This document shows, piece by piece, positions 25,416-59,696 of a DNA stretch of 64,000 bases (its first letter is position 1; each line of letters begins with the position of its first letter). The translations under genes and the position numbers were made by a program. Origin of the DNA: Phoronis australis (taxonomy: Eukaryota; Animalia; Phoronida); contig NMRA01000064.1 of NCBI GenBank assembly GCA_002633005.1, positions 1 to 64,000 on the forward strand, written 5' to 3'. The notes beneath the pieces are model-generated. The model was not told the origin of the DNA. It made no database searches and worked only from the letters and a program-made list of their open reading frames with translations.

Positions 25416-28400
25416 TCATTCACTCAGAGAAGACATTTCGCTTAAGTATCCCGATTCCATAAGTTTGTTAGAGCATTTTTTGTTGTCCAGTTGTTCAATG
25501 TAGTGTTGCACTTTCTCCACGGCCCGCTCTTGTCCGATATTCCTCAACATTGTGGCTAGCGTCTGCAAAGCATCCATTTGACTCTTATCTTCTTTTCGCA
25601 TTTGCAATGTGAAGAGAACAAGCAAGGTATGTGTTTTCGAGTTAGCCATTGTTGTACTTTCAGTGTCTTTAAGGAACCTTGCCTTGTCCGGGCTGATATG
25701 TAGTTCGTTTGCGAAAGCCATATAGTCTTTTCCAGGACGAACCGGCTCTAAAAACTTAATAAGATCATGCCACAGGTCATAGGTAATATATCCAGCTTGT
25801 TTTGTATTTTTTTCACCTAGCATGTAGTTGTAAAAATCATCTTCATCTGGGTAGTGTTGCACCTGAAAAGACCATATAAATACATGACATTAGTGTTAGC
25901 AGAGTTTTCAATATCAGAATCTACCGATGTTCTGAAAGTTGTGTAAGTCTAAAGATCGCCTAGTTTTTGTGAATGTGACATTTTTAGTTTGGTTTCGTCT
26001 TTAATTAAAATCGAAGCTTGGAATTTTCTGCTGTCATCAGCGTTTTTATACTTCTGGAAAACAAGTTGAATGTCCAATTTAATGTCCGCGGCAAATTTAT
26101 GATCTCAGCTGCTCGTTATCTTTCTGAGGAATGGAAATTGTCATTATCAGGACAACTTGAAAGGTGTGGTTTTCATCAATGGCGTCCCAGTTTGTAACAA
26201 ACCACGGGGACAATATGTGACAATTTTGCGGCTAAAAATACACCGAGAATGGAATATGTTGATTTTTTTGTGGTTGAAGTTGAAAAAACAATTGGGACTT
26301 GTATCTTGACAATTGCGCACATGTAAAAGGAGTAAGAGGTGTTCTGGGGAACTCTTTTGAAAAATAAGTATGTTTTGACATTCCAGTGATTTAAAGCTTT
26401 GGTATTCGTGCAAAACATTTGCTGTCTTCTCTTATTTAACACACAATATGGCTGGCTATTGAAATTCCATTTCATTAAAATTCTCCACAAAAATAAATAT
26501 TAAGAACATTTTAGTCTAACGAAAGCAGGTATGGTAGTATCAGTTAGAGACAGCTTCACCATACATTTCTATGACCGCTTGTGGTAAGTTTCAACTTATT
26601 TTGCAAAAAAATGCCAAAACGGTTATTTTTCAATTTTTTAAAGGCTAATTATCTCTTTGCAAATATTTTTTTTGCAAAATTGCGGAGGTAAAAACACAAA
26701 CCGATCTTTCAGCCTTCGATCCATTTTAAGTGATGTTTTCATTAATGTTCAGGTCTAGTTAGCTAATTAATGAGATTTTCTAACTTTTCATAAGTATACC
26801 TTCAATATCACCACATGGCCTAATGGAAAGGGAAAATGTGTGTAGCCTTCCAAGGCTAGTTTGTGAAACATGACGCTAAGCATGAGATTACATTGTCATA
26901 AAATTATGTCCGTTATAAAGCATTATACAGAAAGTTGATGTTATCAGTACGTGAAAGATACAGATACCAAACGATCGTGTAAAAATAGGACCAATAACAA
27001 TAATAACAATGCCTTCATCCACAGCTCTCATTACCTTATGTATTGCTGACGGGGGCGGAAATGTTGCCAGAATAGTTGTCGGTTCACCTCCTGTTTGCTG
27101 AAATGTGATGTCACAAGATGGATCGTCGTCATCGAACCTCAGTCTAAAATCATAGGCTGCTGTTCCCCCTTTGAAAACGCTGTCTAGTTGAATGTCACCC
27201 TGAAAAAAGTGTGCACATGAGAAAATGTGTACAGTTGTCCAGCTTGGCCTTCCACTAATTTGTGTCTCATTTGAGATTGAGCAATCTACATATCCAGTGT
27301 CATATTATCAATGAGAATAACTCAACTACAACTAAGGTGCCTACGCAAAATAGGCACACCCGTGCAGTAGCTACTATGTCTCTCATAAATTGTTTCAAGT
27401 GGGTGAAAGTGGTGGCAAAAGGGGAGGCACAGCTAAAATCATCAGCCCCCCTGGCTGTTTACAGCATGAGGGCGTGAAGAACCCTTACTCTGTCACCACA
27501 AATAGTTCTGGCAATTGTTAATCATGTAAACATAGGCATGTCAAATGACAACCATCATTAAGCCTTGTACCAACATAGGCATTTTAAATGATAAGGGGAG
27601 CTGCCATTTCTGGTTATTCTACCTCACAATCAGAACACAACACAATGCATACAACACAAACTGGATAGTAACATTATGTGCCAGGATTTTTGAAGCTATT
27701 TCTATTAATATAAATGATTTCGGGTGGTGACATCAGCTGCTATGAATGTAAGGCAATGTGGCCCATGGGTACATGCGCGTGCGTAATAATTTACAGGTGG
27801 TCGACCATATGACTAGGATTACTGTAGTCTTACGGATAGACATTAACCCTGAATTTTTAAAATCTTTACTAATTATAAATATCTTCACATTCGGCTATAC
27901 AAAGATGTCTGAATTTCTGTTCCCCTAATCTCACGCTGTTCGCTTTCCTGGCTGAGTGGCAATGTATTGTTTATACTCTGGTTATGCATTATTTAGTTGA
28001 ATGCAATACTTGTCCTGTCTATTAACCCTATTTGGTTGCATGTAATACTTGTCCCGGTTATTAACCCTATTTGATCATTTGGCAACACTATCACAGAATT
28101 TTTTGTAAACCTCCAATTTTTTAGTTTCTGGTTTTAAACAAATGCGATACTTATTCCTCCCCAAGGCTCGCAATAGTACGCATGTGATCTTGTATAACTT
28201 GTCATTCAGTGTCAAATTTTCAACTTTTGAATTTATAGTAATGTTCTAAACTTGATCCAGGCCAAAGGTCAAATTACTGAACTCAAGATTCGACTCAGTT
28301 TCAGGTACAGAACTTATTAACCAATCATTCTACTCGATTGGAGTACAACTTTGTAAGTTTACTCGCTATGTGCTCTGCAATTGGTAATTTTTAGCCTGCA

Positions 28401-31400
28401 AATGAGGAGTGAGTAGAATGAGACCTATGGATAAATGCTTCAATTTTCGACAGAAATTATGGTGAAAATTGCCACATTTCTACTTTTCAGACACTAACTA
28501 CATTGTTTCAAAATTTAATGCGCAAAATTTTACCAAATGTTGTTTGCTAATAATTACGCCATACAAATCATGCTAACAGCAAAGTTTCCTTAAAATTTAT
28601 TTTCGTTGAGAAACTCACCTTTCCGCTATAATGTGACCCAAACTGAAGAATTTTTACTTTTTTATGAGGATAAGTGGTCTGAATCATAAGTTAAATTTTA
28701 CTGAAGATGCTGATTTCTCGCCCCTTTAAACTTACCGTTTTTATTGGTTCTTTTTGATATGCCAGACTGCACTTCATTTTTCTATCCTTTTTACTAACCA
28801 TGTGGCTTCGAGGTCTTGCTGCTAGTCTGTGGTCAGCGTGGTCAAGTTTCATCTGGTGAATGTAGAAGTAAATAAAAACATCAAAAGCAAATGCCAGATC
28901 AAACTCTGTATCGTTGCTGTCTCCAGTGTCCGGTTCACTGAGAATCTTGAGGAATGAATGTCGTTCTGTGTGCTTTTGAATTTCAGTTTAGTTCTCATTA
29001 CTACGGTGCTTTTGCATGGTCTTTTGGATATTAAAAAGACGTTATTGGTGGCAATGTTGCGTTTTTGAAATAGCCCCTAGGTGCAGTCAAACCCACAAGC
29101 ACAGTGGTTGTAGTCAATGCTTTGATAGTAAGGACTATAAATCCAGTGTTCCCAACCATCTGTCTTGAATCGTGACTGCGCCAAATTTGAATTTTGTTGT
29201 GACAAGTTTGGCTTACTTGCCTCGAATTTGAAAACTTATGCAACGAGTTTGAAGTTTTATTAGAAGATTAGTCATTTCTTAGCAAATTAAGGGCTATTTG
29301 GATTTTGGTAGGAGTTCAGTGTGCATTAATTTTATTCCAAGACCTAACACACAAACTCTGCAAAGTATGGACACGTTAATGAATTTTGTATTTTCAGTCA
29401 AGTTTGAATTTTCTGTTGTGGAGAACACTGAAGTCAATACAGCCAGTTGGCAGGGACTATAAACACAACAAAGTTGGAAGGAAGTCTTTGAAATATAAAA
29501 AATAGTTTTGATATATATTTTTGTTCAAAATTGTTGAGATTTTGACCAGTGACACAGGCAAGGCCAGTTCTAGAACTCTGTTCACCTTTAGTTTATAAAC
29601 TAATTTAATTTGTTACGACTTGGAAGCTTATAAGAGAGTTCAGATTGAGATTTCAGAAAAGACTAAAATTGTAACTACAGTAGAAATAGGGCTGTGAGTT
29701 TATCAAGGAGATACTTTACCTCTGATCTTAGAGGAGTGACACAGCACGTCAGTTTTACTTTGTTGGCTGCAAAGTGATCTGCACAGACAAATAAATCCAC
29801 TACAATACTGAAATCTTCACTCATATCCACACTTTCTGGACTGTCTTGTGGTCTGCATTTTTTTGGTCTTGCACCTGTATGGTCTTTCTCCTTAACATCA
29901 TCCATTGATAGGTCCTCCATTTTTTTGCTCACTTTTCCCATTGCTAGATTCGCATCATTTAAATTTTCAGTAGCTTCAGTTTTACTGTCTGCCGTTGCCC
30001 CGGGTTCATCGTCACCCACTGCATACGTTCCTCTGATACCCGTAAAGTGCATCAACAGTACTCTCAAAGCATTGCTGTCAACAAAGGACGCAGAACCATC
30101 TTCTCCATTGATGGATTTCCATGGTGAACTGAGTTGTTGAATCTCGGCCTGTATGGCGTCTGAGTTTGTAGCTCCGTGTTGTATACTCAGCACTACAGGA
30201 CTGTTAAATTCAATACCGTCTGGACCTAACTTTATTGTTGGAGTTATATGTCGTCCTCTCAACGTGGTCCTAGTTTCTAGAACTCGCATGAAGAGACGTT
30301 TTTGGTCATTTAGAGCACCTGGGGGTACAAACAGGAACACACCCTGCTGCTTCAGTTCTAGAAAGCCTCCTTCACGATCAAACAGGGCCGATGTCTCTAG
30401 TGCAGGTTGATTTGGAGGGGTGAGATCTAGGAAATTCTTTGGTGTTTGTTCAGTGCTTTCGTCACACAAAGGAATACCTGGAAGAAAAGTCGTTGTAACG
30501 TGTCATTATCGTAGGATATCTACCAAATACCTGGATACCTATATTATATAATTTAAGAATATTTTGTAAACTTTCTTGACTTAGAACAGGTTGAAAAATG
30601 CACCATTGTCCCCTGTGGTCGGTTGCATAAAACAGTTCCCTAGCTTTTCAGCACATTTGTAGACTAACACTAATTGTCTTTTCTATTTTACCTTTGACTT
30701 TGACTCATACCAACAATAAACAATAAGTTGTATTTTAATATTATTGAAATGAGAGCCCAGTTTTGAAATATATTATCAGAAAATGTGAAAATATATTAAG
30801 TAAATAGGAACTCTCAATGAAGCTAAAGCAGTGTTCCTCATCACGTGTTTTAACTTGTCACCGCGTCAAATCTAATTTTGTCATAACGAGTGTGGCTTGC
30901 TTGCATCGAGTTTAAAACCTATGCACTGAGTTTGAAGTATTAGGAGATTACTCATTTCTTTAGCAAATTAGGACATTTTGGACATTTGGTATCAGTTTGC
31001 TGCATTTATTCCGAGACTTAACACACAAACTTCCAGCAGTATGGACATAATAGACTTTTGTATACGTTCATGAATGTCATTATTCCAGTCAAGTTTTAAA
31101 TTTCTATTGTGGAGAATACTGTAAAGTGACTGCAGAGTGTAAAATTAATATCATTAGTGAGTAAATAAAGTCCAAAGGGTTTTATGGACCCAGCCATGGT
31201 GTTTTGAAGGAGGGTTGTCTCATTTGCCTGTATATGGGACCAAGCATGGTTTTGTGAAGGTGGGTTGTCTTGTGTGCCTGTATGGAACCAATCGTGGTGT
31301 TTTGAAGGAGGGTTGTCTCATTTGCCTGTATATGGGACCAAGCATGGTTTTGTGAAGGTGGGTTGTCTTGTGTGCCTGTATGGAACCAATCGTGGTGTTT

Positions 31401-34400
31401 TGAAGGAGGGTTGTCTCATTTGCCTAAATTTTGCTGTGTAATGTGACATTTTTAACTTTGTGTTTTGGTGATAGATAACTCCTTTTATTATCACAGCCTG
31501 ATTTAATTAGCTAGGAACTCGAAATTCTCTCGTTGAAAACAACGCAACGTGAAAATGCATTCGTTCATGATAGTCACTTGTCAGCTCTTTTAGCGAGGTG
31601 AACAGTTTTTGTGAAATGGAGGGAAATAAATATCCTTTCATTAGGCTACCTTTTGAATTAATTGCCCATTCTGCTGACTTTGATTCTGCACAACAATGTA
31701 TTATGTTCAGTGAGACAGATGGCTTGTTGAAAGATGTGCACAATTTATTTCCAAGTTTGAAGAGTTAAACTTAAGCTTAAAATTTGAAATGATCCTGGAA
31801 ATAGCTTAAATGAGAAAAATACAATGCTTTAGAAGCAAATTAATTTCTTTGTTTGGACAGTTGGTTGCAGTTCTCATTTTAACTGTGACTGTTTACCACA
31901 CAGCAACCTACTTGCGGGGGTTACTATTTTACATTCACAGGACGACAAAAACGTCGTCCGTGAAAAGAGTATAGAACTGCAATCCATCCCTTTGATGGGT
32001 CTGGCACTCTGTTTTTATTCTTGAAATGTATGCCTTCAAAAGTTCTGTTCACTGGCAACTGCTGGTGTTGAGTGTCTCATCTGACATGTGACCTAATAGA
32101 TTACCCACTGTGAAGATAATGGGCATTTGTTTTTTATAAGCGTAGGAATTATATTACGTAAATTTACTGACTATGCAGTGGTTGACTTGCCTTTTACTGT
32201 AAGCTGCTTCAACTGTTTTTTGAGTGTATCGCTTTTACCGATTGTGGAATTCCCGGCAACACTGTTATAACCGCTGTCCTGAGAGAAAACGCTCATTTCA
32301 GAGTTGGCAGAATTCAGTTTTCCAATGCCCAGTTTGTGCTGTTCTATTGGTGGTAGTAGTTTGGGAAGTGTCCTGAAAGGTGATATCACTTCGGTATCTG
32401 GAAGTTGACTGCTTTGCCAGGTTTTGTATTTGATTCTGTTGCTGTCTGGATCACCATGTTGCTGATCATTTGTTGATCTTCCATTGTCACTGTCATGTAC
32501 ACTGGCCTTTGTTGATCTTCCATTGTCACTGTCATGTACACTGGACTTTGCCTCCTTTGGAGTAGTACCTTTGGAATGGCTGGTATTTTCAGTTTCTACA
32601 GAATCTAACTCATCCATTTCTTTTGCTTGCTCTGCTCGGAGCTCTGATTGGTTAGTTGCCCTTGTGACATTGCCTTTCTCCTCAGAAGTGTCTTGGTAGC
32701 CATGGTTGTCATAGTGACCTGTTTCAGGGTTACCTGGAGTTGTGGCTTCTGAATAGTTCTGAACTCTTCCCTGTAAACAAAATGAACAGATGTGAGTAAA
32801 TGCATTTGTTTTGTGGAATATTTGTAATACAAACATCATTGTCCACTGAGAGACTACATCACTTCTATTGAAGAAATGTTTTATTGCTGGTGCTGTTAAT
32901 GAAGTTTTTGTAAAAGTACTATTCACCTGATGAGTTGCCCAAATAAGCCAATTTTAGCTATCCTGTCCGCAAACTTTCAGCGATCCCATTGGTCAACAGA
33001 TGTGGTGTAGTATTCTTTTTTTTGCTTTTCTCTCTACAAATGTTTTGGCAACATGGTTATGAGACCTGAGAGTGACATTTCATTAAGAAAATATTTGCGT
33101 TGTCGCCAAAAATGGCAGATTGGATATCTATAATTTAGTCTCGAAGTTGTTCACCAGAGGGGGCTTGTGCAAGTTGAAGGACTTTCAATATGAGAAGCCT
33201 GTTGCAAGCATGGTTTCTAGTCCAGCAATGGACTCTGGTGTAGATGTTCAATACACTTAGTCAGATTTTTTACCATAAAGCCACAAGTTGATTTGTATGC
33301 ATATTTCAACATTTCAAATTGTTTCTCATTCTTCTCATTTTCTATAATTTTTCTGAGACTTATTGCTGCTGATATTCATTGCACGTTGTTTCATTTTTAC
33401 ATAACCTTTGTGAAGTGTGAAAAATGAGCGCACAGTTGAATTGTAACCGAAACAAAATGTCCTGTTACAGTGTCATGTGATAAGTCTAACGGAATTGGCA
33501 TGGAGAACACAGATTCTATCCCCTCATTAGTCATCTGGGATACATAACAAATTAAGCCAGTTCATATCTTACAAAATGCTTTTCACTGATTTAAATGCAC
33601 CGCTTGACCTCCTCCTTGGTTGTCCAATCAAGAATCAGATGTCAGGGATCTACATCAGACTCAAATTCTAATAGAGTATGGGTTTGAGACTAATCCAGGC
33701 ACTGCAATATAGGCCAGACAGCCACACAACCCTTACAGAACCTCTGCCAGTTTTCTGTGTGTGAATAAGATCAACTTCTTGTCTGCGGTAGTAATACCCA
33801 GGGAACTTGGGTCACGGAAATGGGATTGTCCACAGGCCTTCATGCAGCTTATGTCCTGGATGCCCTAGCACTATTATGGACGCCCTGGCAAGGATCCCAA
33901 TGTATTGTTTGGACCTCCACTGTCAATCAATCTTTTAAGTTTGGACACACACATTGTAATGATTACTGGGAAGCCTAGGCACATAGCTGAAGGGAGAAGT
34001 GAGCTCACAGTGGCAGCTCTTTTTCAAGAAGAAACATACAATGTATATACAAAGTACCAGTACGGTAAAGTCGCGTGATTTTCGGACGGCCCGCCATTTT
34101 CGACCACGAATAAATATTTCCGAAATGAGTTTTTCATGGTCCACAAAATTCGTACAAGGTCCAAAAACTGTTTTTCAATGATCCTCGAATTTGGGACAAT
34201 GTCATAAACGTCGGATTTTTGTCCCGCGACTTTCGGACAAGGAAAATTTTAGAAACGCTAATTTAGGATCGACGCAACTCCCGTGTCACTAAAGCGTTCA
34301 ACGGATGATTACTACTCGATAAGGCTTGAATCTGAGAATTGGGGTAACGGGCTTTGTAATTTTTACCTTGTCTTGACGATGTCATGACCGTTACTCGATT

Positions 34401-37400: not shown

Positions 37401-39790
37401 CGACAAATGGGGATCACAAGTCGATGAGAAACTACTCGTTTTATTATCATGATTGTCTTTGTTATCTATTTTGGGTAATTGTTCAATCGAAGTTTTCATG
37501 TTGAAACTGAGCTTTCAGTTAATATGGAAATAAATGTGTCAGAGTTAACTTGCGTTTCGGTTTGTAACCAGCAGACAATGCATGGATACGTTTAACAAAC
37601 ATAAATATATGCTATGTTCTTGTCATTGTTCGTCACTTTCTTCATTGAACTCGTTCCCACATCCATTACTGTTACGTTTAATGCAAAATTCGTTAAAATT
37701 GAGAAAGCGCATGTTTTGATGGTCGGGAACCCTCTTTGTGCGCCGAATACGCAATTCCAGCATTTTATTGGGAAACCATGCGTTCACAGCGCAAACTCGA
37801 CATTTTTGTTATTGAGAAAACGCATTTTTACAAAAGAGAATCGGTTGTCTAACGTTTCATGTGCGTCAACAACGCAAACCAGACCCACTCATTGAAAAGC
37901 CCATATTTGTCACCAGGAAGACTCTTCGCAACGCAGCCCGATATTTCAAGTGGGATAGCGCAGTTTTGAAAAGATTCCGTCACTTGCGGAGAACGGTTTT
38001 TGAGCATCGGCAATGCAAGCCGAATATTTCATATTGAGAAAGCACATCTTTGAAAAGAAGAACCAACACTTGTTGGGAACGGTCTTTGTGCGTCGACGGC
38101 GCACATTTCTTATTGGGAAAGCCAGATTTTCAAAAATTAATCGCTCAGACCATTTGAGTCTCATTTACCTGCAATTATACTGCTATCAAATGACCGAGCC
38201 AGCATTGTTGATACTACGACCGCTCATCGAAATAATGTACACCCACGAAATTCGGACACTAGCGGAAACCCAAATTTGGAGGTCCGCCAAATTCGGACAC
38301 CACAAAATGATATTTCGCGAGATTCGTCCAAGAATGAATTTTTTCTATTGGAATTAATTTTCAGTGTCCGAAAATCACGCGACTTTACCGTATATACAAT
38401 GTTGCTGTGTTCACATTTAGTTGATAGCTTTGAGTATCTACAGCGGCTTTCAAGTATTAGCAGATTTGGTTGTCAAAGTTTCTTCCACAGCTGGCTATGC
38501 TCCCAGTGGTCTTGCCTCCACAGGTCACTACTATATGTAAATGTAGGGTTCGTAACTTAGTGCGACTCCATACTGGTATTTCAGAGATGTAACTGCATGA
38601 TTTTCATCTTTTTTTAAAATATAAAAAACGAAATAAATGTCATTAATTTAATACAATATTGTGCCACAGGAAAATGCCCATTTAATTCTTTTGAGTTTGT
38701 GCTCTTTCGTGCTTTTCAATGTGCGTTTTAACGTTTAATATGGAACAGCAGTGACACCTGTTGCCAAAATATAAGTCACACATCATACCTGCACTTATCT
38801 TGTTTTGTAACTGCAGCTCTGATGACTCATTTTACAGAATATTAAAGCTAAGTAAAATTATGTGACAAACTTTATAACACTTTATAACATCAATTTGACC
38901 CAAGATCACCAAAAACATAGTGCACTCATCATTTAACTAATATCTCTAATATTTGTTTGGTAAGCTACTTGGCTGTTTTTGTAAATTAGGATGTAAAAGT
39001 CTTGGTCTACACAGTTTTCTCAGTAAAAAAAGCTCACTACAGAAGGCTGTTTTGTAAACTTAGACGTGAAAACCTTGGTCTACGCATTTTTTGTAAAAAA
39101 ATCTCTCTGTGTGGGGGGGGGGTTGCTGGTGAGTGGTCCTGGTGGTGGGGCTTACGCATCGGAATCATGGACGCCCTGGAATATTGGGAACCCCATTTTG
39201 GGCACCCTATTTTCGAAATCCTGGATAAAGGCCTGATTGTCCGTGATTTTTTATCTTACCAAATGTGCAAAACTGTGTTCAAAAAGGCTTGTATTAAATA
39301 AGTTTGGTGACTGAAAAAGGTAACACACTGTAGCTTATTACTAAATACACAATTTGGTATACATATTGTCATGTGTATACATATTGTCATGTGTATACAT
39401 ATTGTCATGTGTATACATATTGTCATGTGTATACATATTGTCATGTGTATACATATTGTCATGTGTATACATATTGTCATGTGTATACATATTGTCATGT
39501 GTATACATATTGTCATGTGTTCGAACTAAATCCGACCTGGAAGGTCTTTAGTAACTTACCTTATTCTTTGAACGTAGTTTTCTGAAGAGGCAGATAACAC
39601 ATCCGGTTAAAATAAGAAGTAAAACTCCAGTGGTGATCGTAACGATGTAAAATATTTCAATGGTTATGACAAATGAGTTTCCACAGTCTTGTTGGGTTGG
39701 TCCTGTACATGGTCCTGCGCGGCAATACTGATCACATGGTACACAGGCGGTACTGTTGTTAAATGTTGATTGCGGACACGTGCTGCTCAT
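25416..39790 (-). CDS. Gene A: single-pass receptor, Cys-rich (furin/TNFR-like) ectodomain - TM - disordered region - ZU5 - linker - UPA-like - death domain; exons 39790-39560, 32770-32191, 30477-29720, 28852-28736, 27199-27035, 25862-25416 (~765 aa)
   Basis: All junctions are phase-consistent (0,1,0,0,0; intron 2 is GC-AG). Ectodomain CPQSTFNNSTACVPCDQYCRAGPCTGPTQQDC; TM IFYIVTITTGVLLLILTGCVICLF followed by RKLRSK; ZU5 FDREGGFL...VFLFVPPGAL...PTIKLGPDGIEFNSPVVLSIQH...W...HFT; death domain DLWHDLIKFLEPVRPGKDYMAFANEL...LATMLRNIGQERAVEKV. Start codon is inferred. Confidence 0.8.
29144..31121. repeat. Pair of ~290-bp direct repeats (29144-29430 and 30829-31121) flanking the gene A ZU5 exon
   Basis: Both begin CAGTGTTCC and share GAGTTTGAAGT.TTA..AGATTA.TCATTTCTT, AACACACAAACT, CAGTCAAGTTT and TTGTGGAGAA.ACTG. 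Confidence 0.7.
31183..31425. repeat. Tandem repeat, 98-bp unit made of two ~49-bp subunits, ~2.5 copies
   Basis: GTTTTGAAGGAGGGTTGTCTCATTTGCC recurs at 31201, 31299 and 31397. Confidence 0.85.
34063..38390. mobile_element. 4.3-kb TA-flanked DNA element (Tc1/mariner-pogo-type ends), no intact transposase seen
   Basis: Perfect TIRs CGGTAAAGTCGCGTGATTTTCGGAC / GTCCGAAAATCACGCGACTTTACCG, TA on both sides; CpG-rich interior; no long ORF. Confidence 0.75.
35926..36192. mobile_element. Small pogo/Tc2-like MITE nested in the 4.3-kb element
   Basis: Inverted ends GATTTCCGTATATAAGT / ACTTATATACGGAAATC. Confidence 0.5.
39358..39520. repeat. 18-bp minisatellite (TATACATATTGTCATGTG) x9
   Basis: Perfect tandem copies; explains the repetitive ORFs at 39256-39585. 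Confidence 0.95.
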
Positions 39791-42700
39791 GATGAGTTTT
39801 ATTGGTTGTCCATCCTCACTAGAAAAACAAAACATACTGAGCTTTGTATCGTCTGAGATTTAATGATTTTGAAATAACTACAGTGTATTGTGGGACGAAT
39901 AAAACCAACCAATGAGAATATACTTCTGCATTTCCAACCAAAAGATGACAAGTAAGATTTTTATCCCACTATCTTTATGATGTATTACAGTAAAAATTAT
40001 TCAATTTAGGACAAAAGTAATAGCTAAAATTGCCATATTTTTTGTCACATTGTTACAAATGGTCAAAATTTTCCAGATAATGTTTGATAATAGCTTTTCC
40101 ATGTAAACCATGTTTGGTAATAGCTGTGCGTTACAAACCATGCTAATAGCAAAGTAAAGTATTCTTGAAAAGTTGACAGTCGCAGGGTGTGCGGCTGGGA
40201 AATTAAAATTCCCATAATCCTTTTGAGTTGGTGAAAACCCATTTTTTTTAAAGACTGAGTAATCATGATTAAAAGGTATCTGTTAGTTGGAACCTCATTG
40301 AAAGGTATCTGTTAGTTGGAACCTCATTGAAAATTTCATCCATTTGGATTTTTTCTACATAATCGTGTGAAGTGGTTCTAAACCCTATTGAATGCTTATT
40401 TGTTGGATTAAAATTGAATAAAACACATGAGCTACCCTATAATACCACAAACCTAGTTATAAAATGAGTGACCTTTCTGTCTCCAAACTAACTCATAGTC
40501 TTCTAGTAAGTAACTTCTCTGGGTTTTAATTAGCTGCAGTTCATGTGTTAAACTCACACTTATTTTCATAGTCACATTTTGGGTAGTTATTAATCATGGT
40601 CACCACATGATTAACCAGCGCAATAGTATGAATGTAAGAAGAATAAACTCCATTTAGTATTTTTAAAATCTTCCATTAGTTTGTTATATTTGAAAGCAAT
40701 GTTGCAATGTCCTAGTGTATGCCGGTTGATCTTCAGGGTGAAACAATGACTCTTAGGTGAACAGAAATTATCACGGCACTTCGTGAATAAGAGTTCGAGT
40801 TCACACTGTTTTTTTAACTTCATAGTTGACTAGATTGGAAAATAAAGCATGGAAATATGAAATCAGTCAGTTTCGGTTTTTGAAATATCAATTTTGGCAC
40901 CAAGTAGTTTGTTACCTTCATACTTTGCGGTATTTCTCTTTTCATTATCCAACAAAGTACGAGTACCAGGAGCGGTGCGCAGCCTATTGTGCACTTGATA
41001 AAAATAAAGTTATGTTCAGATGCTTTTTAGAATTATGGTAACAGTTTGAGATTCTGAGTTTGAGAACATGAGCAGCATCATGGTAAGCAAAATGTAGACT
41101 TTGTGTTTGATGTAATAACAAGGTTGTCTAGCATAAACTCTGCTCGTTTTGTTTTTACATTGTATGTAAAATAATCTGTTAAGTACTTGCCTCATATTGG
41201 AAGTGGGAACTCTATGCTGTAAAAGGTCCTAGCATTCATCGACAACTGTGCATCAATGAATAGTCTACTGTGATCTATTTAAACTGCTGTTTCCCCTTCT
41301 CAATTTGATATCTTTATTATGTCAAAAGCAAGTCTTACGGTCTTTCCGTATCCAGTGACAGAATCCTCTTCAAGTGAGTGATTGTCTATAGGTTCCTAGA
41401 CTGGACAATATAGTGATGCCATAGGGTTCTTTGTGTTCAGTTTGTGGAAAGTTTGTAGGTATCCTTTACCTATTTGTTGTCTTCTTGTACTACTTAGAAT
41501 GAGAATCGCTGTGTAGGCAATCTAGATGATTAGAAACTTAATGAACACTTACCTGGATTCACAGGTTGTCTTGTTTTTACACAACTCAGTTATCAGGTAA
41601 AAGCTGACAGTTGTCTCCAAAGGTATGCTGCCATGGTATATTTAGCATCTCTCTTTCTCTGCTTGACTGTTGCTATGGGAGTTTTCTGTTATGGTCTCCT
41701 GATATCTGGGCCTGTGTAAATATGTATGGTCCATTGTTCTCTTTTTAAACCCCAATCAATGCCTGTGGAATGCACCTCAATGTGTTCTTTTGTTTAACCT
41801 GTGGGTGTACCTGTCTAAATATTTTCGTATGAGTCATGGGGTTTTTGAGGAAGTAAGATGACCCGACTACCGTTGTTAGTACAGTTTTGATATGCAGCAT
41901 GTTCAGTGATTTGAGAAAAGGTTAAAGTTCCTTTTTAAGGTTTTGAAGGCCCTTATCAATTAATGTGTGTACTTATCCATCTATCTACAAAACAATCTAG
42001 ATTTCAACTTAAAAATACTTTGTTGCAGTTTCTTATCATTTCATTTTCGTTTTTTGCAATTTTTGATTTTTTCAAAAACATTACAGTCCTATGTTTGATA
42101 GCCCCTCATGTAAAGGTGTAACATTCTAAAAACAACAGTATTTGGAGAACAGTGCATCTAAAAGCTTCATGTGAACAGTGCTGTAGTAATAAAATTAAAG
42201 GTAAGTAGGCACCCAGAGCCCTCCCCCCCCNCCCCCCCCCCCGTATCACCTTGAGCACTGAACGTAACTTACGGTGCGTAGACGCTATGTTCAAATGCCA
42301 AAAGGTGGTTGGCTGCGCCTACGTGCGCCTACGCCCCACTACAGCACTGCATGTGAATCTGATCAGTCATCAGTTGGACATTTTTCTGGTTGTGAATACA
42401 CCTCTACAGTACATTGAATTGAAAACAGTACCAATAGTTTTTAGACAATTTTGTGAACACCGAGATTGGGTAAAATAAAGAAAATCAAAGTGTTTGTTTT
42501 CCCATCAAGTCAGAAAAATAAGCCACTTTTTGCTATTCACTTCTTGAACCCCTAATCATCTCATTTGTTAATTTTTTTTTCGTCACAAACTTGTTGGCCA
42601 AATATAGTTTTGGTTATTCACCTGACAGGCGTCAATCAAAGTTGATAACTGATGTGCTGTCATAAGTGACTTGTTCTATATTCCACACTTGGACAGGCAA

Positions 42701-44174: not shown

Positions 44175-44502
44175 ACAGAATGCCACTATATGTCTGAGTA
44201 GTGGTCGGCTGTACATGGTGTAATACAGAATGTTACTGTATGTCTGTAGTGGAAGGCTGTACATGGTGTAATACAGAATGTTACTGTATGTCTGTAGTGG
44301 AAGGCTGTACATGGTGTAATACAGAATGTTACTGTATGTCTGTAGTGGAAGGCTGTACATGGTGTAATACAGAATATCACTATATGTCTGACAGCTGTAC
44401 ATGGTGTAATACAGAATACCATTGTATGTCTGAGTAGTGGTGGGCTGCACATGGTGGAATACACAATATCACTGTATGCCTGAGAAGTTGACGGCTGTAC
44501 AT
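44175..44502. repeat. 48-bp minisatellite, ~6-7 copies
   Basis: TGTACATGGTGTAATACAGAATGTTACTGTATGTCTGTAGTGGAAGGC repeated. Confidence 0.9.
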
Positions 44503-45316
44503 TGTGCATCATCAAACCAGATGAAAAAATGAAGTTGTTTGGAAAATGATCAAAGAAAATGAAGAATGTGTTTGCTATAATAGATTCTTTATTATTGTTC
44601 ATACAGGGTATGTGTCAGGATGATGCATCCTTGTCACAACCAATACACTCTACGTAACGCTGTCAGAGTGTACAATCATAACTAATTCCTACTTCAAGTC
44701 TGTAACGCTTCTACGCTTAAAAGGCACATTCCAGAGCATCCTTTTCGAATTTCACATAAAACAATTTGTCAGAATTATTGTTTTTCTATTGTTCAGAAGG
44801 CCGATTATAATACGTTGTTGAAATAGTCAAAATTTTGTTGTATGATAAGAGTTCAGTACAAGCAGTAGTGTTCATGATGCCATGTAAATAGACTCAGGCT
44901 GGACAAAATACCCGCAAAATCTTGGCTTATTTTCCTATTTTTATAAAGGAATTTTCACTCATATTTTTCAACTTCTGTTGCATGTAGTTATAAGCCAATT
45001 TCCTTACAACTTCATAGATTGCCCTATGAGAATCTACTATGCTTTTTGATTTTACCTGATTTTATATCACCTTGTATGTAAGTGCTTAAGCTAATTTTGC
45101 AAACATTATGCCAGGAAAATAAATTAAAATGTTCAATTTACAAAACAATGAAGCGGTTTATCCATGCTTGTAACAAAGGAATGTTTAAACTGAAACAATA
45201 TAATGATTAAAATATGTGTATACACTAAAACTGTATTCAGTGTAACTATTTATATCAAAACTTTGCATTCTTATAACATAATTTTCTGTCGTCAGTTTAT
45301 TTTTAAACAAGTTGCA

Positions 45317-49937: not shown

Positions 49938-52900
49938 CTATTCAACTCCTTTCTGTTTATCGACTAAGAAGGCGTCTCCAACCGACATATAAGCACTGTC
50001 CTTTTCTACCGGTTTATTACCCTGCGGCTTCTTATGGGACCTCATCTGTACCTGTTGATGTGCAGTAGCCTCAGCTCTTTCCCCACCTTCACAATCACCC
50101 TCAGGTTGCCGAATAACAGAGTACGTCTCCGGATAGAGAAGTTCTTGAATATGATGGGCAATAGAGTCTGGCTTTGCTTGGCAGTGTGCCAGCAATTTCC
50201 TCAAGCCATCTTCTGGAGCCTCATGCTGACTCCTCACCTTCATTTCAAAGATGTCCAACAGATGTCCACAGTCGCTGTGTTGAACTTTCTGCTGGCACCG
50301 TTGAAGCCTTTCGTACGTGTCGATTTCTTCGTCTTTTGTACCCAGTTGTTCTTTGAGAAATTGTATAAATTGCCTTCTGTTTTTAGGATCATCCAGATTC
50401 GTTAACAGCTTGTATCGCAGTAACAGTGGAAGACAGGTTCTCTCAGCCTGTAAAGATCAGTCCTTGTGAATTTAATTTTTCTCTTTGTTACTGGTCAGGA
50501 GAACGTGTAGTACATTGATAATGAGGATTGTTTCCTGATACTATTAGCTGTGTTGATTCATTCAATTTCATTTTAATTGTGACTATAGCTGCAAGAAATT
50601 AAGAAGCTAAAATAACACCATATTTTGTGTTCTTTTGAATGCCTATACTATTAGTAAACGATTCTGAAAGAACATTCAATGGAGTGCTTTTTTGAACCTT
50701 GCTTCCAAGAGAGCTCACATGCGGGCTCTTTTATGCGTCCACATTTGTACATGTGGGTGCATTGTGGCGTCATTCCTATCCAGACAGCATCCCTTCGATG
50801 TATGTTCATGGAAATTTACAGACATGTTCCTTTCATGGATGGGACGGCGTGATCGGACTACCGTTGTGCCCCCTAATTTCATTTTTTCCAATTTTCTCTT
50901 GACAGATTTTTTATGAAATTTGGTAAATAGGTCTCCATTGAAAAATTGATGACGTTTTCCCGTTTTTGGATGGATTCAACATTTTTGCGCCATCTAGTGA
51001 CCATTTTTACTGTTTGCTAATGTGTTTTTGGTGTCCGCCCCTCTATGATCCAAACCACTCAAACGATAATGATGAAAATTGGCATGTATGGTTCTGCTGT
51101 GAAGAGGATGGCTGATGGATGATTTTCGGATGACTCCGACTACTGTGGCATCTCCTAGTGGTGTTTTTAAATCTCTCCTAAATCCTTTGTGGGAACTTTC
51201 ATTATTAAATTTGGCAAGTGTATTTATATGAAATTGACGACAGACGACATCATTTGGACGAATCCGACTTTCGCTGTGCCCCTGGAAATAATTTTTCCCC
51301 CGTTATCTTCTGTTATAATCTTTGAAGCTCCTTAACGGATATTTATGAAATTTAGTAAATGGATTTCTATTCGACAATGACATGTTCCCATTTCCTGATA
51401 GATTTGACATGTAATGGCCACTTTTGTAAACATGAAATTTTGCAAATAGGTTTCTGTTAAGGAGATGACTACGCCTTCTAATTTTCGGACAGATTTGTCA
51501 TACTTTGTGCCACCCGCTGGCCATTTTTAAAAATTTTAAATACGTTTTTGACGTCCCTCTCTCTATCCATCAAACCGCTCGAAGGATCATTATTCTGGGG
51601 GCCCAGGGTCGTAGCTATGAACTCTGACTTGACTCCTACTGGAAACTTAGCCAATCATAATGCCTGAGTACTAACTTGTACGTTTACTCATTCCGTGTAA
51701 TTTATAAATTTTCATCTTTAGTTTTGAGTACTGACATTAGATGCCAGGCCCTTATTTGTCAATCTTCCAATGAACAAAGGCAAATCACCGATAAAATCAT
51801 CACATTGAATTTTTAACTTTTGGTTATATTTTGCAGTATCCAGTTTAGTAATAATTGTTTACCATAGTAGTTGCAGCAGCTGTCACTAAGATGTCCACAC
51901 CGTTGTCTTCACAACCCTGCTGTACATGTAGTTTGTAGGTGTTAGTCCGATGAGTGGTAATAATGAATTCCACACCACTGTATCCATGCTTATACACGGT
52001 AGCTACCTTGATAGTTCTGTCTTCTACCTGTAGATGTCAGTATGGTGTGCTTAAATTGATACCAATCCCGTCTAGCCTATTATCAGATAATTATCACCAC
52101 TAGATTCTATAAATGTTTGAAATAAAATATTACCGCGTTACCCTTGTCAACCCTCAAAAGTTTGGAACAACTTTGATATCATACAAGGACTGTCAAATGG
52201 CCAAGTACCAGACAGACACGCCACAAAAATTCTTTCCTTGAATTACCTCCCCCCCCTTGCCACAGAACCTGAATTCCAACCACACTCACACACTCTTACC
52301 ATGAATAATTTTAGTGTAACTAACTGGAAACACAACATAGACACTGGTCACTTGTACTGAATGCCGGAACGTGATTGGAGTTCAGGTTTCATGGTAAATG
52401 TTTTTTTAAGCATGGCAAGAGTTTTGCAGTGTGTGGTGAAGGTATGCACACCCATGGTAAGAGTAGGTTTCCACCCCCTCTATTGACAGCTGAGGTGATT
52501 GACAGCTGAGGTGATTGACAGCTGAGGTGATTGACAGCTGAGGTGATTGACAGCCTAAATCAAGCCACACTGTCCACTTTCTAACACAACTTGAAATTGT
52601 TTTGAGCTGAAGAACAAGATTATTAGATAATCAGGTTCAAGACATGGGGTAAAATGTCAACTGTTTGGCATGCAATATGGCAAACAATTAAAATTTTATT
52701 TTCTTGTTTTTCACAAAACTTAAATGTCTGTAAGTGATGCTTTGCTGTTTGAATAGTTGTGGGCATTCAAAACAATGTGAAAAATCTTTGAAAAATGAAA
52801 ATTATTACATTTCGACTTTTATTTTTGTTCAAAGTTAGGGAAATGCTATGCTTTGGTACATGTTATGTGATTAGAAATTGTTTCATTGTGGAACATGCAA

Positions 52901-54530
52901 AAAGGTTACTGTGAATGCAAACTGGTCAACCAGCAACGTTTAACATTGATTTGGTCCACTGTTGTGAAAGGAGGATATGTGTTAAGTTTTATTACTTACT
53001 ACTTCTGCAAACCTCAGCTGCACGCTCACATCACCGTCTCCCTCACACAAAGACATTGGCTGTGGTAGGCCTGTTGCCTGGATGCCTTTCATATTAGATA
53101 ATTTGACCTGAAACGAAGCTGTTCGTTGAGCCATTGGGGAAAAAGCATTGTCTGTCTAAAACAATGAATTATCCACTGTAACACACTTCCACTCATTACT
53201 CTTTTATATTGTAGCAAAAACTAATAAATTAATTTAGTTATCAGTTTAATTTGTACAGAGCTTATCCTCTGTTAAGGATATCTCATATATTATTCACAAA
53301 AATTAGCCGCCGTTTTTACAATATTTCACATACCATATGTCTAGCAAAATACCTTATCTTCATTCTTAGGGAACTTCAAATACGAAATATATACTTTGTA
53401 GTGAGAAAAAATAGATTTAGCAGAAGTACATTGGAACCATACATGTGTTCATGTGGGTATGGGTGTAAAGCGGAATGTTTATGGTCTGTTTCATTCCTAG
53501 TGATTTTTTGGTCTTTGTACACTGTAGCATAATATATCCAGACATAGCTTAAATCTGTCCGTATCTCTTAGTACAGTTGAATGACTTAAATGTACGTGGT
53601 GTCACTTACCATAATATCCAAGTCCTTCATCACGTAGCATGTCAGGTGGCGCATGTTGGAGTTGATAGGGCGCTCGTACACTGTCACGTGAGCTGTCTGG
53701 GTATTCGATGCACCTGGATTGTTTGAGGGCATGTCGTCTGCTTCAACAGGATCCTGTCTGACGAATGACTGACTGGGAGCAGTAGCGCCTTCCTCTGAGC
53801 ATTCCTCTTCGTTGTCAGAGATACTTTCTAGCGCATTGCTGGCTCTGATTCGCGTAAAGTGCCACAACCCGATGCTTATCTCCTTCTCGTCGACAAAGTA
53901 ACTGGCGTCTTGTTCTTTAGCATGCTTCCATTCATCATCGGTCTGTTTGATATCAACGCAGACTTTTGCTTTGCTACTGTTATTTTTCCGTTGATAGCAG
54001 ACGTACACAGGTCGCTTGAAGTGAGTTCCTTCCGGCCCCATCTCAATAATGGGCATGACATGTTTTTTTGTGGGTGTATCCTGTGGCTGAATGATTCTCA
54101 TTGTTAACTCTTTAGCCTGTGTGCCGATTGCTCCTGGAGGGACAAACAGAAACACATTATGTTCATTACTCGTTAGGAAGCCACCTCTTTCATCAAACTC
54201 ACCCCTCACCGTGGTGGGCGGTGACAGGTTTGCTACATCCTGGTTAGAGTCGATGGTTGTGTTGTCGCTTGAATCAGCTGTGCTGCTCTCTTTCTCAGTA
54301 CTTTCATGCCCGTGTGGAACACTGCCTGTCGGACCTTTAGTCCCACCATCTGTCTCACCTCCTGTCCTACTAGTATCACTCATAGTCTCATTTTCAGCAT
54401 TCTGAAACTGGTCTATCCGTGTGTTATTTTGACTCTTAAAAATGTTGCTTTCCAGGATGTAATCTTTTTTATGCTGCTTTCCGGAGGTATTGTGTGCCTT
54501 TTTAGAGGCAAAAGGTTTGAATGTACGTCT
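49938..54530 (-). CDS. Gene B: disordered N-terminus - ZU5 - linker - UPA-like - death-domain-like protein; exons 54530-53610, 53107-53000, 52027-51863, 50447-49938
   Basis: All junctions phase 0 with GT-AG. ZU5 FDERGGFL...VFLFVPPGAI...PIIEMGPEGTHFKRPV...W...HFT; exons of 108 and 165 nt match gene A's 117- and 165-nt exons; last exon LPLLLRYKLLTNLDDP...LLDIFE...GLRKLL is death-fold-like and ends in TAG at 49938. Confidence 0.8.
50690..51600. repeat. Unclassified interspersed repeat with internal subrepeats
   Basis: Recurring ATGAAATTT.GTAAAT.G blocks (about 50913, 51345, 51432) and GTCC..C.CT.TAT...C.AAACC.CTC blocks (about 51033, 51553). Confidence 0.45.
52482..52554. repeat. 16-bp tandem repeat (ATTGACAGCTGAGGTG) x4.5
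   Basis: Perfect copies in a gene B intron. Confidence 0.9.
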
Positions 54531-57436: not shown

Positions 57437-57700
57437 AATTCATGCATCTACGGAATACAGCCCAGGTTTACACAATTCATGCATCTACAGAATACAGCCC
57501 AAGTTTATACAATTCATGCATCTACAGAATACAGCCCAAGTTTACACAATTCATGCATCTAAAGAATACATCCCAGGTTTACACAATTCATGCATCTACA
57601 GAATACAGCCCAAGTTTACACAATTCATGCATCTACAGAATGCAGCCCAAGTTTACAAAATTCATGTATCTACAGAATATAGCCCAGGTTTACACAATTC
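57437..57700. repeat. 37-bp minisatellite, ~7 copies
   Basis: TTCATGCATCTACAGAATACAGCCCAAGTTTACACAA repeated. Confidence 0.9.
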
Positions 57701-58140
57701 TCAGTTTTCAGTGATTTCACTAGATGTTCATGAGACAACAACCGTCCCACAATGCATTTGAAAAACAAGCATCAGCGCTGCTAGTGAGTAAGTTTTGGTG
57801 TGGAAGAAATTCTGCAAATTAATGCTGCGTGTTTCATTGAAAATCAGTTTTCTACTAGCTAAGTTTCCAAACTTCCTCAATTTGGGAAAATTATGCCATT
57901 TTGAGCCTTTACCAATTCTTCAACTTTGTCTCAAGAGTCAAACCAAATGTTTTAGTGGGAAGTGTCCCTGCTCAGGCCTGTCATACAATTTAGTTGCTAA
58001 AGACTGTAACGAGTAGCCAAGCCACCAACTCGGGGATGGTCAAATGTAACTGTCATGTTTATTAATTTCTCATGGAGCCTGAGTGGATCATAGCTTGACC
58101 AGTTTATGGTTGACGAAGTCTTTAAGATGGCGTCATGACC

Positions 58141-59302
58141 AATAGCTCACTTGCGAGTTTCTCGCTAGTCACTGTGACGTCACCGGAAAAGGGGCAAAAC
58201 CCGCCATATTGCTCTTGTTTCATGCCCCGAGTCTTTGCTACACACGCTAAAACTTACTGGAGTTCTTATGGTGAATTTTACGCTTAAAACGTTAAAACAA
58301 CTTAAGATATGGTAGATGGGTCGTGGAATATCTGTGAATAGACGAAGAAAATGTGACCTTGTTATGTTGTGCGAAGCTGTGAACGGACTGAAATTGGAAC
58401 TTAACCCGCTCTAGGCCTGAATGGCGCAGGCATACAGGGGCGATAGTGTATCCCCATGAAAAGATATTTACTTCAAAATACAGCAAATAAAATCAAATGA
58501 AACATGCATATGTGCACATGAAGTTATAATTAACACATACCCTGACTCTGGACACAATTTAGTCTACAAATATCTTGAGCGGTTCTCTCGAGTTTCTCTC
58601 ACTAAAGAGCCGCCATTTTGAGGAAGTTACGTGAAATCACGCCTGTTGACGAACAAAAAGTCCAAGGGACACAAATCTTACAAATTTCACTTGATATTTT
58701 CTCATGCTATTTTGCAAGTGTCACGCGCCAGGTCACGCGCCAGATCTCGCGCTTCGCTCAGTCTCGCGCTAGCCTTTGCCTCATACTCACCTGACTCAGT
58801 TGAAATACTTGATTGTGGTAATCGCGCGCGCGGACAAAGTTAACAGTAACCACAAAGTGGAGTTGGAATTCTTCGCCTAAGTCACCTGAATTCCCGTATA
58901 TATGCTTCATCGAAGATATGTTTAGAAGCAGAAAGAGTCACTGAAGAAAGTAAGAGCCTTTTAGGTGCTAATTTTAGGTGTAGAATGTATTTTCGACGAG
59001 GTGAAAACTTTATCAGTGAGCGGATTTCGCCTACCGCCCGTTTAAAATACACGGGACGAAATTAGTACAGAACGCGATAGAACGTATTGTAGTGCGAATC
59101 TGAAGTTCATTTGCCATAACAGCGATGCTTTTGGGCATTTTTCGAACTAAACGGCTAAAAACTCGAAGACAATAACAGAATACACTCTGCTACCGTATTG
59201 GGCAAATGACCAAACGACAAGCTTTTGCCCCACTTCCGTTGACGTCACAGTTAAGTCTCACATAATCTCGCGTTATTGTTATAAACTCGCAAAAGGCCTA
59301 TT
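58141..59302. mobile_element. CpG-rich non-autonomous DNA element (MITE-like)
   Basis: Imperfect inverted ends AATAGCTCACTTGCGAGTTT / AAACTCGCAAAAGGCCTATT and subterminal CTGTGACGTCACCGGAA..GGGGCAAAA / TTTTGCCCCACTTCCGTTGACGTCACAG. Confidence 0.6.
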
Positions 59303-59669
59303 TACAGTGTACCAGTAGTACTGTGGGCCAATGGAAATAATTATAATAATAGGTTGATAAATGTTATAAAACAACTTTTAGATATATCATTTCTGCACAT
59401 CAGTGCTATTTGAAAGTCCACTCAACTGAATGTCCCAGATTGGCCTTTTTGGCCCATGACCTGAGTGAGTCATGGAAAGGTGCAGAAGACACGTCTACTT
59501 TTCTGCAGGTACATCTCAGCCAATCTGACCAAGAGCGCTAGCACTAAAAACAGAGATCCAAAACAAAACTACTTAAAATGCCATTTGACAAGTATCCAGA
59601 TAGTCTTGTGGGTACCCCTGAGGTAGGTTCCGGTGCCCCTAGATCAATGTTGAATCTTCTAATACTTAC

Positions 59670-59696
59670 CATCACCGTCTTGTTCTTGTTTGCCAT
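59670..59696 (-). CDS. Candidate first coding exon of gene B (MANKNKTVM)
   Basis: ATG in CCAATGG context with an upstream in-frame stop, strong ATG|GTAAGT donor, phase 0 compatible with the 54530 acceptor. Not confirmed. Confidence 0.35.

What the first reader, a model, noticed from the sequence alone, without database searches (positions are those of the whole stretch)
25416..59696. Paired ZU5-UPA-death-domain genes: a membrane receptor and an apparently soluble CARD8-like paralogue, a candidate invertebrate autoproteolysis-gated signalling module
Seen: two tandem same-strand genes with the same C-terminal exon scheme (ZU5+linker exon, 117/108-nt exon, 165/165-nt exon, death-domain exon, with phase-0 junctions between them) but strongly diverged sequence and different N-termini. 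Gene A has a tiny Cys-rich ectodomain, a TM and ~200 aa of disordered sequence. Gene B has only ~110 aa of disordered sequence. Established: ZU5-UPA-death-fold cassettes occur in UNC5, UNC5CL, PIDD1, ankyrin, NLRP1 and CARD8; in NLRP1/CARD8, ZU5 self-cleavage plus degradation of the N-terminal piece frees an oligomerising UPA-CARD. Inference: A and B may form a receptor/adaptor (or sensor/decoy) pair releasing UPA-DD fragments into NF-kB or caspase signalling. Neither has UNC5's Ig/TSP1 ectodomain, PIDD's LRRs or ankyrin repeats, so the architecture fits no vertebrate family I recognise.
Basis: partly seen in the sequence, partly recalled or inferred. Interest (0 to 1): 0.85.

Follow-up and report, generated by a model that had tools for sequence, protein, structure and literature searches.

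The report
Tandem UNC5CL-type self-cleaving death-domain genes
Two neighbouring, transcribed animal genes encode a likely membrane-anchored and a soluble version of a known death-domain signalling module that is predicted to cut itself; both carry short motifs resembling kinase-triggered destruction tags, which would act as on/off switches, but whether the two proteins work together is untested.

Summary
Both genes are real and lie on the minus strand. RNA joins 4 of 4 introns of gene B and 2 of 5 of gene A. Both encode ZU5 ending in His-Phe-Thr, a shortened UPA-like region and a death domain (A by Pfam; B by family profile and fold). A has one furin-like six-cysteine module and a membrane helix; B has no membrane segment. 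The claim that no vertebrate family fits is wrong: UNC5CL is a self-cleaving TM-ZU5-UPA-death-domain protein. The closest relatives are an expanded 'UNC5C-like' family of hemichordates, echinoderms and amphioxus, in which the cassette sits behind many different N-termini; membrane-plus-soluble forms and apparent tandem pairs recur there. The scan has noted other fusions of this cassette in other genomes. 'CARD8-like' is an analogy of layout only. New here: furin-repeat receptors of the same plan in amphioxus and Ptychodera, and beta-TrCP-type DSGxxS motifs strongly enriched in the disordered flanks of relatives (tail: 14 of 59 proteins, 0.44 expected); A and B both carry them. Verdict: new variant of a known kind, moderate interest.

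The parts
39560..39818 (-). Gene A exon 1 (first coding exon as assembled): Met 39790, one six-cysteine furin-like module (aa 4-36), TM helix (about aa 46-70), basic stop-transfer stretch
   Evidence: Hydropathy peak 2.5; weak PDB matches to ErbB2/ErbB3 cysteine-rich repeats, E 0.07-0.3; best of 2434 open frames against a furin-repeat profile, E 1.4e-4, and 30% identical over 82 columns to the last repeat plus TM of amphioxus P0043; link to exon 2 not shown by RNA
32191..32770 (-). Gene A exon 2, disordered cytoplasmic region, ends at a GC donor
   Evidence: RNA joint 30476/32190; low hydrophobic content
32261..32278 (-). DSGYNS, beta-TrCP-type degron-like motif in the piece N-terminal to the predicted cut
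   Evidence: Motif scan; consensus DSGXXS in PMC6027159; function inferred
29720..30477 (-). Gene A exon 3: ZU5, HF|T motif (30049-30041), acidic linker of about 70 aa, first UPA strands
   Evidence: Pfam ZU5 E 3e-13; covered by RNA contigs
28736..28852 (-). Gene A exon 4 (117 nt), UPA-like middle
   Evidence: Canonical splice sites, open frame; weak family-profile support, 5.5 bits, 1 of 300 shuffles reaches it; joints not shown by RNA
27035..27199 (-). Gene A exon 5 (165 nt), UPA-like C-terminal strands
   Evidence: Donor confirmed by RNA joint 25860/27033; alignment to family UPA
25416..25862 (-). Gene A exon 6: death domain and tail with ESGYLS degron-like motif (25457-25440)
   Evidence: Pfam Death E 1.8e-9; family profile 30.3 bits; RNA joint
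59670..59696 (-). Gene B exon 1, coding part (ATG at 59696)
   Evidence: Joint 54530/59670 in 16+4 reads; in-frame stop upstream
53610..54530 (-). Gene B exon 2: about 105 aa disordered, ZU5, HF|T motif (53861-53853), acidic linker, first UPA strands
   Evidence: Pfam ZU5 E 8e-10; RNA
53000..53107 (-). Gene B exon 3 (108 nt), UPA-like middle
   Evidence: Both joints in RNA; family profile 14.0 bits, 0 of 300 shuffles
51863..52027 (-). Gene B exon 4 (165 nt), UPA-like C-terminal strands
   Evidence: Both joints in RNA
49938..50447 (-). Gene B exon 5: divergent death domain and tail with DSAYMS degron-like motif (50000-49983)
   Evidence: Family DD profile 14.3 bits, shuffles max 2.1; six-helix model pLDDT 80.8; best fold matches Tube, RIPK1, TNFR1 death domains, Z 8.2-8.5, rmsd 2.8-3.0 over 85-100 residues; RNA
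41553..41640 (-). Candidate upstream exon of gene A (strong donor after 41553); its ATG runs into stops as assembled, so a 5' UTR exon or an unresolved signal-peptide exon
   Evidence: Sequence; low minus-strand read depth in one run; join to 39818 not shown

Best explanation
A and B are two transcribed, diverged tandem paralogues of an expanded invertebrate UNC5CL-type family (ZU5-UPA-death domain), A likely membrane-anchored and B soluble, each predicted to cut itself at His-Phe|Thr and likely to signal through its own UPA-death-domain piece under control of phosphorylation-triggered destruction tags. Shown: gene models (B fully, A partly by RNA), domains, HF|T motif, tail motifs, relatives. 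Inferred mechanism: (1) after folding, Thr attacks the preceding peptide bond and the two pieces stay associated, as in PIDD1, UNC5CL and CARD8; (2) release or clustering of the UPA-DD piece lets its death domain nucleate an IRAK/MyD88/FADD-type assembly leading to NF-kB or caspase output; in A the trigger would be ectodomain clustering or loss of the membrane-bound N-piece, which carries DSGYNS; in B loss of the disordered N-piece; (3) the tail motifs (ESGYLS, DSAYMS) would be phosphorylated by an IKK/GSK3/CK1-type kinase and recruit SCF-beta-TrCP, ending the signal. They need not act as a dedicated pair.
For: RNA joints. Pfam ZU5 in both, Death in A; B's death domain by profile and fold. 110 of the 150 listed relatives keep HF[T/S/C] at the same place, 80 of them HFT; Ser, Thr or Cys can be the nucleophile (PMC3210808 passage). 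Family profile matches UNC5B ZU5-UPA-DD at E 2e-69, and MyD88 and FADD death domains at about 3e-11 to 3e-10. Of 30 relatives looked up, 10 are hemichordate, 10 echinoderm, 7 amphioxus, 1 bryozoan, 2 unnamed, several labelled 'UNC5C-like protein'. A and B are each other's nearest ZU5 (34%) and sisters in the ZU5 tree, SH-aLRT 95. Degron-like motifs: 30 in 25 of 112 relatives against 2.1+-1.4 in local shuffles, permuted-motif controls 1-2, none in the folded core of the 59 DD-bearing proteins; tails 14 of 59 against 0.44, N-regions 10 of 59 against 1.25. p100 uses DSAYGS for SCF-TrCP (PMC6027159 passage).
Against: No cleavage, binding or signalling was measured. A's TM exon is not shown spliced to the rest, and 3 of A's 5 introns lack displayed RNA joints. 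A's UPA support is weak (5.5 bits, 1 of 300 shuffles higher; not significant), and both UPAs are shortened. B's death domain lacks the family's conserved tryptophans (alignment) and Foldseek gave no match at E<=0.001; the model was built from an alignment of death domains, so it leans that way. A and B are long branches and the relatives were collected with an A+B profile, so sisterhood may be inflated. The degron-like motif is not family-specific: 4 of 38 hits without the HF motif also have it, the 14 tails fall into about 7 related groups (trees), the broad pattern was chosen after seeing A and B, and Asp|Ser-Gly can also be a caspase site (recalled). B has no such motif in its N-piece.
Confidence: 0.62

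Rival explanations
1. A and B are a dedicated pair: A is a ligand receptor and B its soluble adaptor or decoy, binding through death domains or UPA.
For: Adjacent, same strand, sister ZU5 domains, both transcribed in the same runs; B's death domain is unusually diverged, as a decoy might be.
Against: Adjacency follows from tandem duplication alone. Relatives with consecutive accession numbers on one contig occur in Ptychodera and Acanthaster, and one Ptychodera gene makes both a TM and a TM-less isoform (P0153, P0010), so the arrangement is common. The two death domains are only 14% identical.
Confidence: 0.15
2. The cassette works as in UNC5A-D: an uncut, autoinhibited ZU5-UPA-DD supramodule acting in guidance, adhesion or dependence-receptor apoptosis; HF|T is kept for folding only.
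For: The best structural relative by sequence is UNC5B; canonical UNC5 does not autoproteolyse; Asp-Ser motifs could be caspase sites (recalled).
Against: UNC5B has no HF[S/T/C] at the aligned place (alignment), whereas 110 of 150 relatives keep a nucleophile there and vary only among Thr, Ser and Cys. No Ig or TSP1 exon was found.
Confidence: 0.13
3. One or both genes are drifting duplicates, still transcribed but losing function (shortened UPA, odd death domain in B, a reduced ectodomain and possibly lost signal peptide in A).
For: Long branches; low read depth, about 0-9x; shortened UPA; upstream ATG of A runs into stops.
Against: Open frames of 765 and 576 codons, exact splicing and conserved exon phases despite 33% identity, with HF|T and tail motifs kept in both.
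Confidence: 0.1

Closest known systems
UNC5CL (ZUD; database label 'UNC5C-like protein')
   Same: TM helix without the UNC5 Ig/TSP1 ectodomain, then ZU5-UPA-DD, autoproteolytic (PMC10084454, PMC7883297 passages); title of Heinz 2012 names IRAK signalling (reference list only).
   Different: A adds a furin-like cysteine module, about 210 aa of disordered juxtamembrane sequence, an acidic ZU5-UPA linker and degron-like motifs; nucleophile Thr (Ser in UNC5CL, recalled); B has no TM; orthology not shown.
Invertebrate deuterostome 'UNC5C-like' ZU5(HFT)-UPA-DD family, notably P0043 (amphioxus) and P0072 (Ptychodera)
   Same: Same cassette and HFT; P0043 and P0072 have furin-like repeats, TM, disordered region with a DSG motif, then ZU5 and DD.
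   Different: They carry several repeats and a signal-peptide-like start; A has one repeat and no evident signal peptide. The three do not group in the trees; ZU5 identity only about 30%.
CARD8 and NLRP1 (FIIND = ZU5-UPA)
   Same: Disordered N-region, ZU5-UPA, death-fold domain; functional degradation is the model for release (bioRxiv 10.64898/2026.10.24.761588 passage).
   Different: SF|S motif and CARD there; HF|T and death domain here.
PIDD1
   Same: ZU5-UPA-DD, HF|S autoproteolysis, DD platform.
   Different: PIDD1 has LRRs and two ZU5 domains; A and B have one ZU5 and no LRR.
NF-kB p100/p105 C-terminal degrons
   Same: B's DSAYMS resembles p100 DSAYGS, an IKK1/SCF-TrCP site.
   Different: No Rel or ankyrin domain in A or B; resemblance of a six-residue motif only.

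Membership tests
UNC5CL | ZU5-UPA-death domain in that order | tested here: met
   Pfam ZU5 both, Death A; B DD; UPA clear for B, weak for A
UNC5CL | N-terminal TM without Ig/TSP1 ectodomain | tested here: inconclusive
   A has a TM exon whose splice to exon 2 was not displayed in RNA; B has no TM and does not meet it
UNC5CL | His-Phe-nucleophile at the end of ZU5 | tested here: met
   HF|T in both; Thr is a permitted nucleophile; Ser in UNC5CL itself is recalled
UNC5CL | Orthology to vertebrate UNC5CL | tested here: inconclusive
   No vertebrate UNC5CL sequence was in hand; A+B are long branches with no supported placement
UNC5CL | Autoproteolysis and IRAK-dependent NF-kB activation | not testable with these tools
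   Needs expression assays
UNC5A-D netrin receptors | Two Ig and two TSP1 ectodomains | tested here: not met
   Only one cysteine-rich coding segment upstream of A's TM, furin-like; Ig-bearing relatives found no such exon in the window by tblastn; A's 5' end is not RNA-defined
CARD8/NLRP1 | SF|S cleavage motif | tested here: not met
   HF|T in both against SF|S
CARD8/NLRP1 | C-terminal CARD | tested here: not met
   A scores Pfam Death above its cut-off; B matches the family death-domain profile and its top six fold matches are death domains, although Dark CARD and AIM2 PYD lie within 1 Z unit
CARD8/NLRP1 | DPP9 restraint and release by N-terminal degradation | not testable with these tools
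   Needs biochemistry
PIDD1 | N-terminal LRRs and two ZU5 domains | tested here: not met
   One ZU5 per gene, no LRR hit in the exons scanned
TNF-receptor-type death receptors | TNFR cysteine-rich domain in the ectodomain | tested here: inconclusive
   The 33-aa module gave no TNFR family hit at E<=1 and matches furin-like/ErbB repeats weakly; too short for a firm call

The most novel reading that the evidence does not exclude
Invertebrate deuterostomes have a large family of self-cleaved ZU5-UPA-death-domain switches wired directly to the IKK/beta-TrCP circuit: a DSGxxS tag in the N-piece makes a kinase signal destroy it and free the death-domain piece (endogenous, phosphorylation-gated functional degradation), a second tag in the tail switches the signal off, and gene A is a furin-repeat death receptor of this class with B as its soluble partner or parallel sensor.
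Probability: 0.2. Interest if true: 0.78.

Novelty: new variant of a known kind. Interest (0 to 1): 0.45.

Why it matters
Self-cleavage followed by release of a UPA-death-fold piece is understood mainly from NLRP1, CARD8, PIDD1 and the little-studied UNC5CL. These genes belong to a much larger invertebrate repertoire in which the cassette is shuffled behind many sensors, mostly uses Thr as nucleophile, and often carries beta-TrCP-type tags. If the tags work, they give a simple answer to what triggers and what ends signalling by such cassettes, testable with two or three point mutants, and suggest how the inflammasome's degradation logic may have arisen from NF-kB-pathway parts. The tandem pair itself is ordinary for the family.

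Tried and rejected
No whole genome is held, so paralogue count and synteny in this species were not examined. Word-based protein searches with the single ZU5 exons found nothing at E<=0.001; weak evidence, as HMMER later found 183. Search with the furin-repeat receptors gave 61 hits, of which only the query P0072 had ZU5; it missed even P0043, so it says nothing on how widespread that plan is. Single-sequence fold of B's last exon: pLDDT 54, no death-fold match; superseded by the alignment-based model. Complex prediction A-DD with B-DD: no answer, score 0.00, alignments not used; no evidence either way. NLRP1 and CARD8 chains were not among the 48 PDB matches of the family profile at E<=0.1, which does not exclude remote kinship. 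A's death domain alone gave no significant PDB sequence match. No RNA holder was on record in the run index; raw-read runs were added by species label and laid. The atlas gave no result. No phase-2 signal-peptide exon was found between the genes. The GC-richer stretch at 58-59.3 kb first looked like B's promoter; reads show a multi-copy repeat. TRAF6-like PxExxD motifs (A 622, B 270) are too short to weigh and were not tested. Heinz 2012 and Liao 2014 were not held. Ten paper searches listed no paper whose title or abstract start describes this invertebrate family, furin-repeat ZU5 receptors or beta-TrCP tags in them; most subscription papers and all supplements were outside what I saw, and amphioxus immune-repertoire surveys (recalled) may list such architectures. 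The careful tree did not finish; the quick tree is quoted. In one search midpoint rooting left the support label of the A+B branch ambiguous.


Full report
1. Observation. Six-frame and splice-site scans recover two genes on the minus strand. Gene B (59696-49938) has five coding exons and 576 codons; gene A (39790-25416) has six and 765. Four public runs of one species label were laid. All 4 introns of B are joined, with stranded reads from the minus strand and a 1481-nt contig over exons 2-5. For A, 2 of 5 introns are shown, one of them GC-AG (15 joints displayed, 4 not). The TM exon's link to exon 2 rests on sequence alone: strong donor, matching phase, no rival exon found. Depth is low, and about a fifth of each raw run was read.

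2. Domains. Pfam finds ZU5 in both and Death in A. B's last exon is missed by Pfam, but scores 14.3 bits on a profile of 28 relatives' death domains (200 shuffles, best 2.1), folds into six helices at pLDDT 80.8 with an alignment, and its best structural matches are the death domains of Tube, RIPK1, TNFR1 and FADD (Z 7.8-8.5, rmsd 2.8-3.0). Foldseek gave no significant match, and the model leans on a death-domain alignment. The middle exons align strand by strand to the family UPA but are shortened; support is clear for B (14.0 bits, 0 of 300 shuffles) and weak for A (5.5 bits, 1 of 300). Both have His-Phe-Thr at the end of ZU5. A has one hydrophobic helix, B none. A's ectodomain is one six-cysteine module of the furin-like/ErbB type. 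No signal peptide is evident: translation would start at Met 39790, unless an upstream exon ending at 41553, whose ATG meets stops as assembled, supplies one.

3. Relatives. A profile of the two ZU5 exons found 183 representatives at E<=0.001; the best 150 were listed. 110 of 150 have HF[T/S/C] at the same place, 80 of them Thr. Of 30 looked up, 27 are hemichordate, echinoderm or amphioxus. Pfam scans of 96 of the 150, plus two cluster members, show the cassette behind furin-like repeats plus TM (P0043, P0072), Ig domains, TPRs, a Rel domain, RING fingers, LRR-TIR or nothing recognised. 15 of 59 death-domain-bearing members have a TM-like segment before ZU5. Amphioxus P0043 (furin repeats) and P0037 (TPRs) share 64% ZU5 and 73% DD identity, so N-termini are swapped quickly. 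One Ptychodera gene yields a TM and a TM-less isoform, and consecutive accessions on one contig suggest tandem pairs in Ptychodera and Acanthaster (inferred from numbering). A and B are sisters (SH-aLRT 95, 114 rows, quick tree; 38 hits without the motif left out), with long branches; the three furin-type receptors do not group. A profile of 21 members matches UNC5B's cytoplasmic region at E 2e-69.

4. A has DSGYNS before ZU5 and ESGYLS in its tail; B has DSAYMS in its tail. DSGXXS is the IkB degron read by SCF-beta-TrCP, and p100 uses DSAYGS (PMC6027159, passages). In 112 relatives, A and B excluded, the strict motif occurs 30 times in 25 proteins against 2.1+-1.4 in local shuffles; permuted motifs occur 1-2 times; 60 PCSK5/EGFR-like proteins have none. 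Among 59 DD-bearing members the broad motif lies in 14 tails (0.44 expected) and 10 N-regions (1.25 expected), never in the folded core. Against: 4 of 38 hits without the HF motif also have it, the control proteins are mostly extracellular, the 14 tails form about 7 related groups, and the broad pattern was chosen after seeing A and B.

5. Mechanism. Established: ZU5 self-cleavage by Ser, Thr or Cys with the pieces staying together (PMC3210808, abstract and passages); PIDD1 and UNC5CL autoprocessing (PMC7883297, PMC10084454, passages); release of UPA-CARD by N-terminal degradation (bioRxiv 10.64898/2026.10.24.761588, passages). Inferred: A and B cut at HF|T; the freed or clustered UPA-DD piece nucleates a death-domain assembly; A's N-piece tag could make a kinase the trigger, and the tail tags would end the signal. 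The tail tags have the stronger statistical support and are shared by both genes. Nothing here shows that A and B bind.

6. Comparison and novelty. The layout works like UNC5CL (A) and, by analogy, CARD8 (B). Membership in CARD8/NLRP1, PIDD1 and UNC5A-D fails on tested features; orthology to UNC5CL is open. PMC8195603 (passages) already notes ZU5/UPA fusions in invertebrate immune expansions, and earlier notes of this scan list other such fusions (unchecked). What I did not find described in ten searches is the furin-repeat receptor form and the degron enrichment. Verdict: real genes, new variant of a known kind, interest 0.45; boldest reading 0.2 likely, worth 0.78.

Noticed in passing
window 17900-22710 (+): DEAD-box helicase exons (DDX54-like from recall) stop after motif II at about 22693; no convincing later helicase exon was found on the + strand in the remaining 41 kb, so genes A and B may sit antisense inside one long helicase intron, or the helicase is truncated.
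   Followed up: partly
window 33882-39235: Multi-copy element in A's first intron, read on both strands at 20-50x; ends 73-78% like a short element at 2761-3173, with a perfect 27-bp inverted repeat at 34061-34087 and 38366-38392; likely a DNA transposon nested in a MITE-like element.
   Followed up: partly
window 30478-32190 (-): Non-canonical GC-AG intron in gene A, confirmed by RNA.
   Followed up: yes
window 45302-47871: About 2.5 tandem copies of a 1-kb unit, 91-95% identical, between the two genes.
   Followed up: no
window 7035-8066 (-): Large exon with rhodanese-like and dual-specificity phosphatase domains.
   Followed up: no
window 58000-59300 and 50900-51600: Multi-copy repeats in B's introns with high read depth.
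   Followed up: no
protein P0104 (Glandiceps talaboti): Rel homology domain fused to ZU5(HFT)-UPA-death domain: an NF-kB-like protein that might be released by self-cleavage; gene model not checked.
   Followed up: no
proteins P0021 and P0037 (Branchiostoma floridae): A Toll-like receptor followed by ZU5, and a TPR array followed by ZU5-UPA-DD; gene models not checked.
   Followed up: no
proteins P0032 and P0044 (hemichordates): Family members with a different small cysteine-rich ectodomain and no Pfam match for it.
   Followed up: no
window 12975-13400 (+): Cysteine-rich ORF with weak transposase-associated matches, probably a transposon remnant.
   Followed up: no
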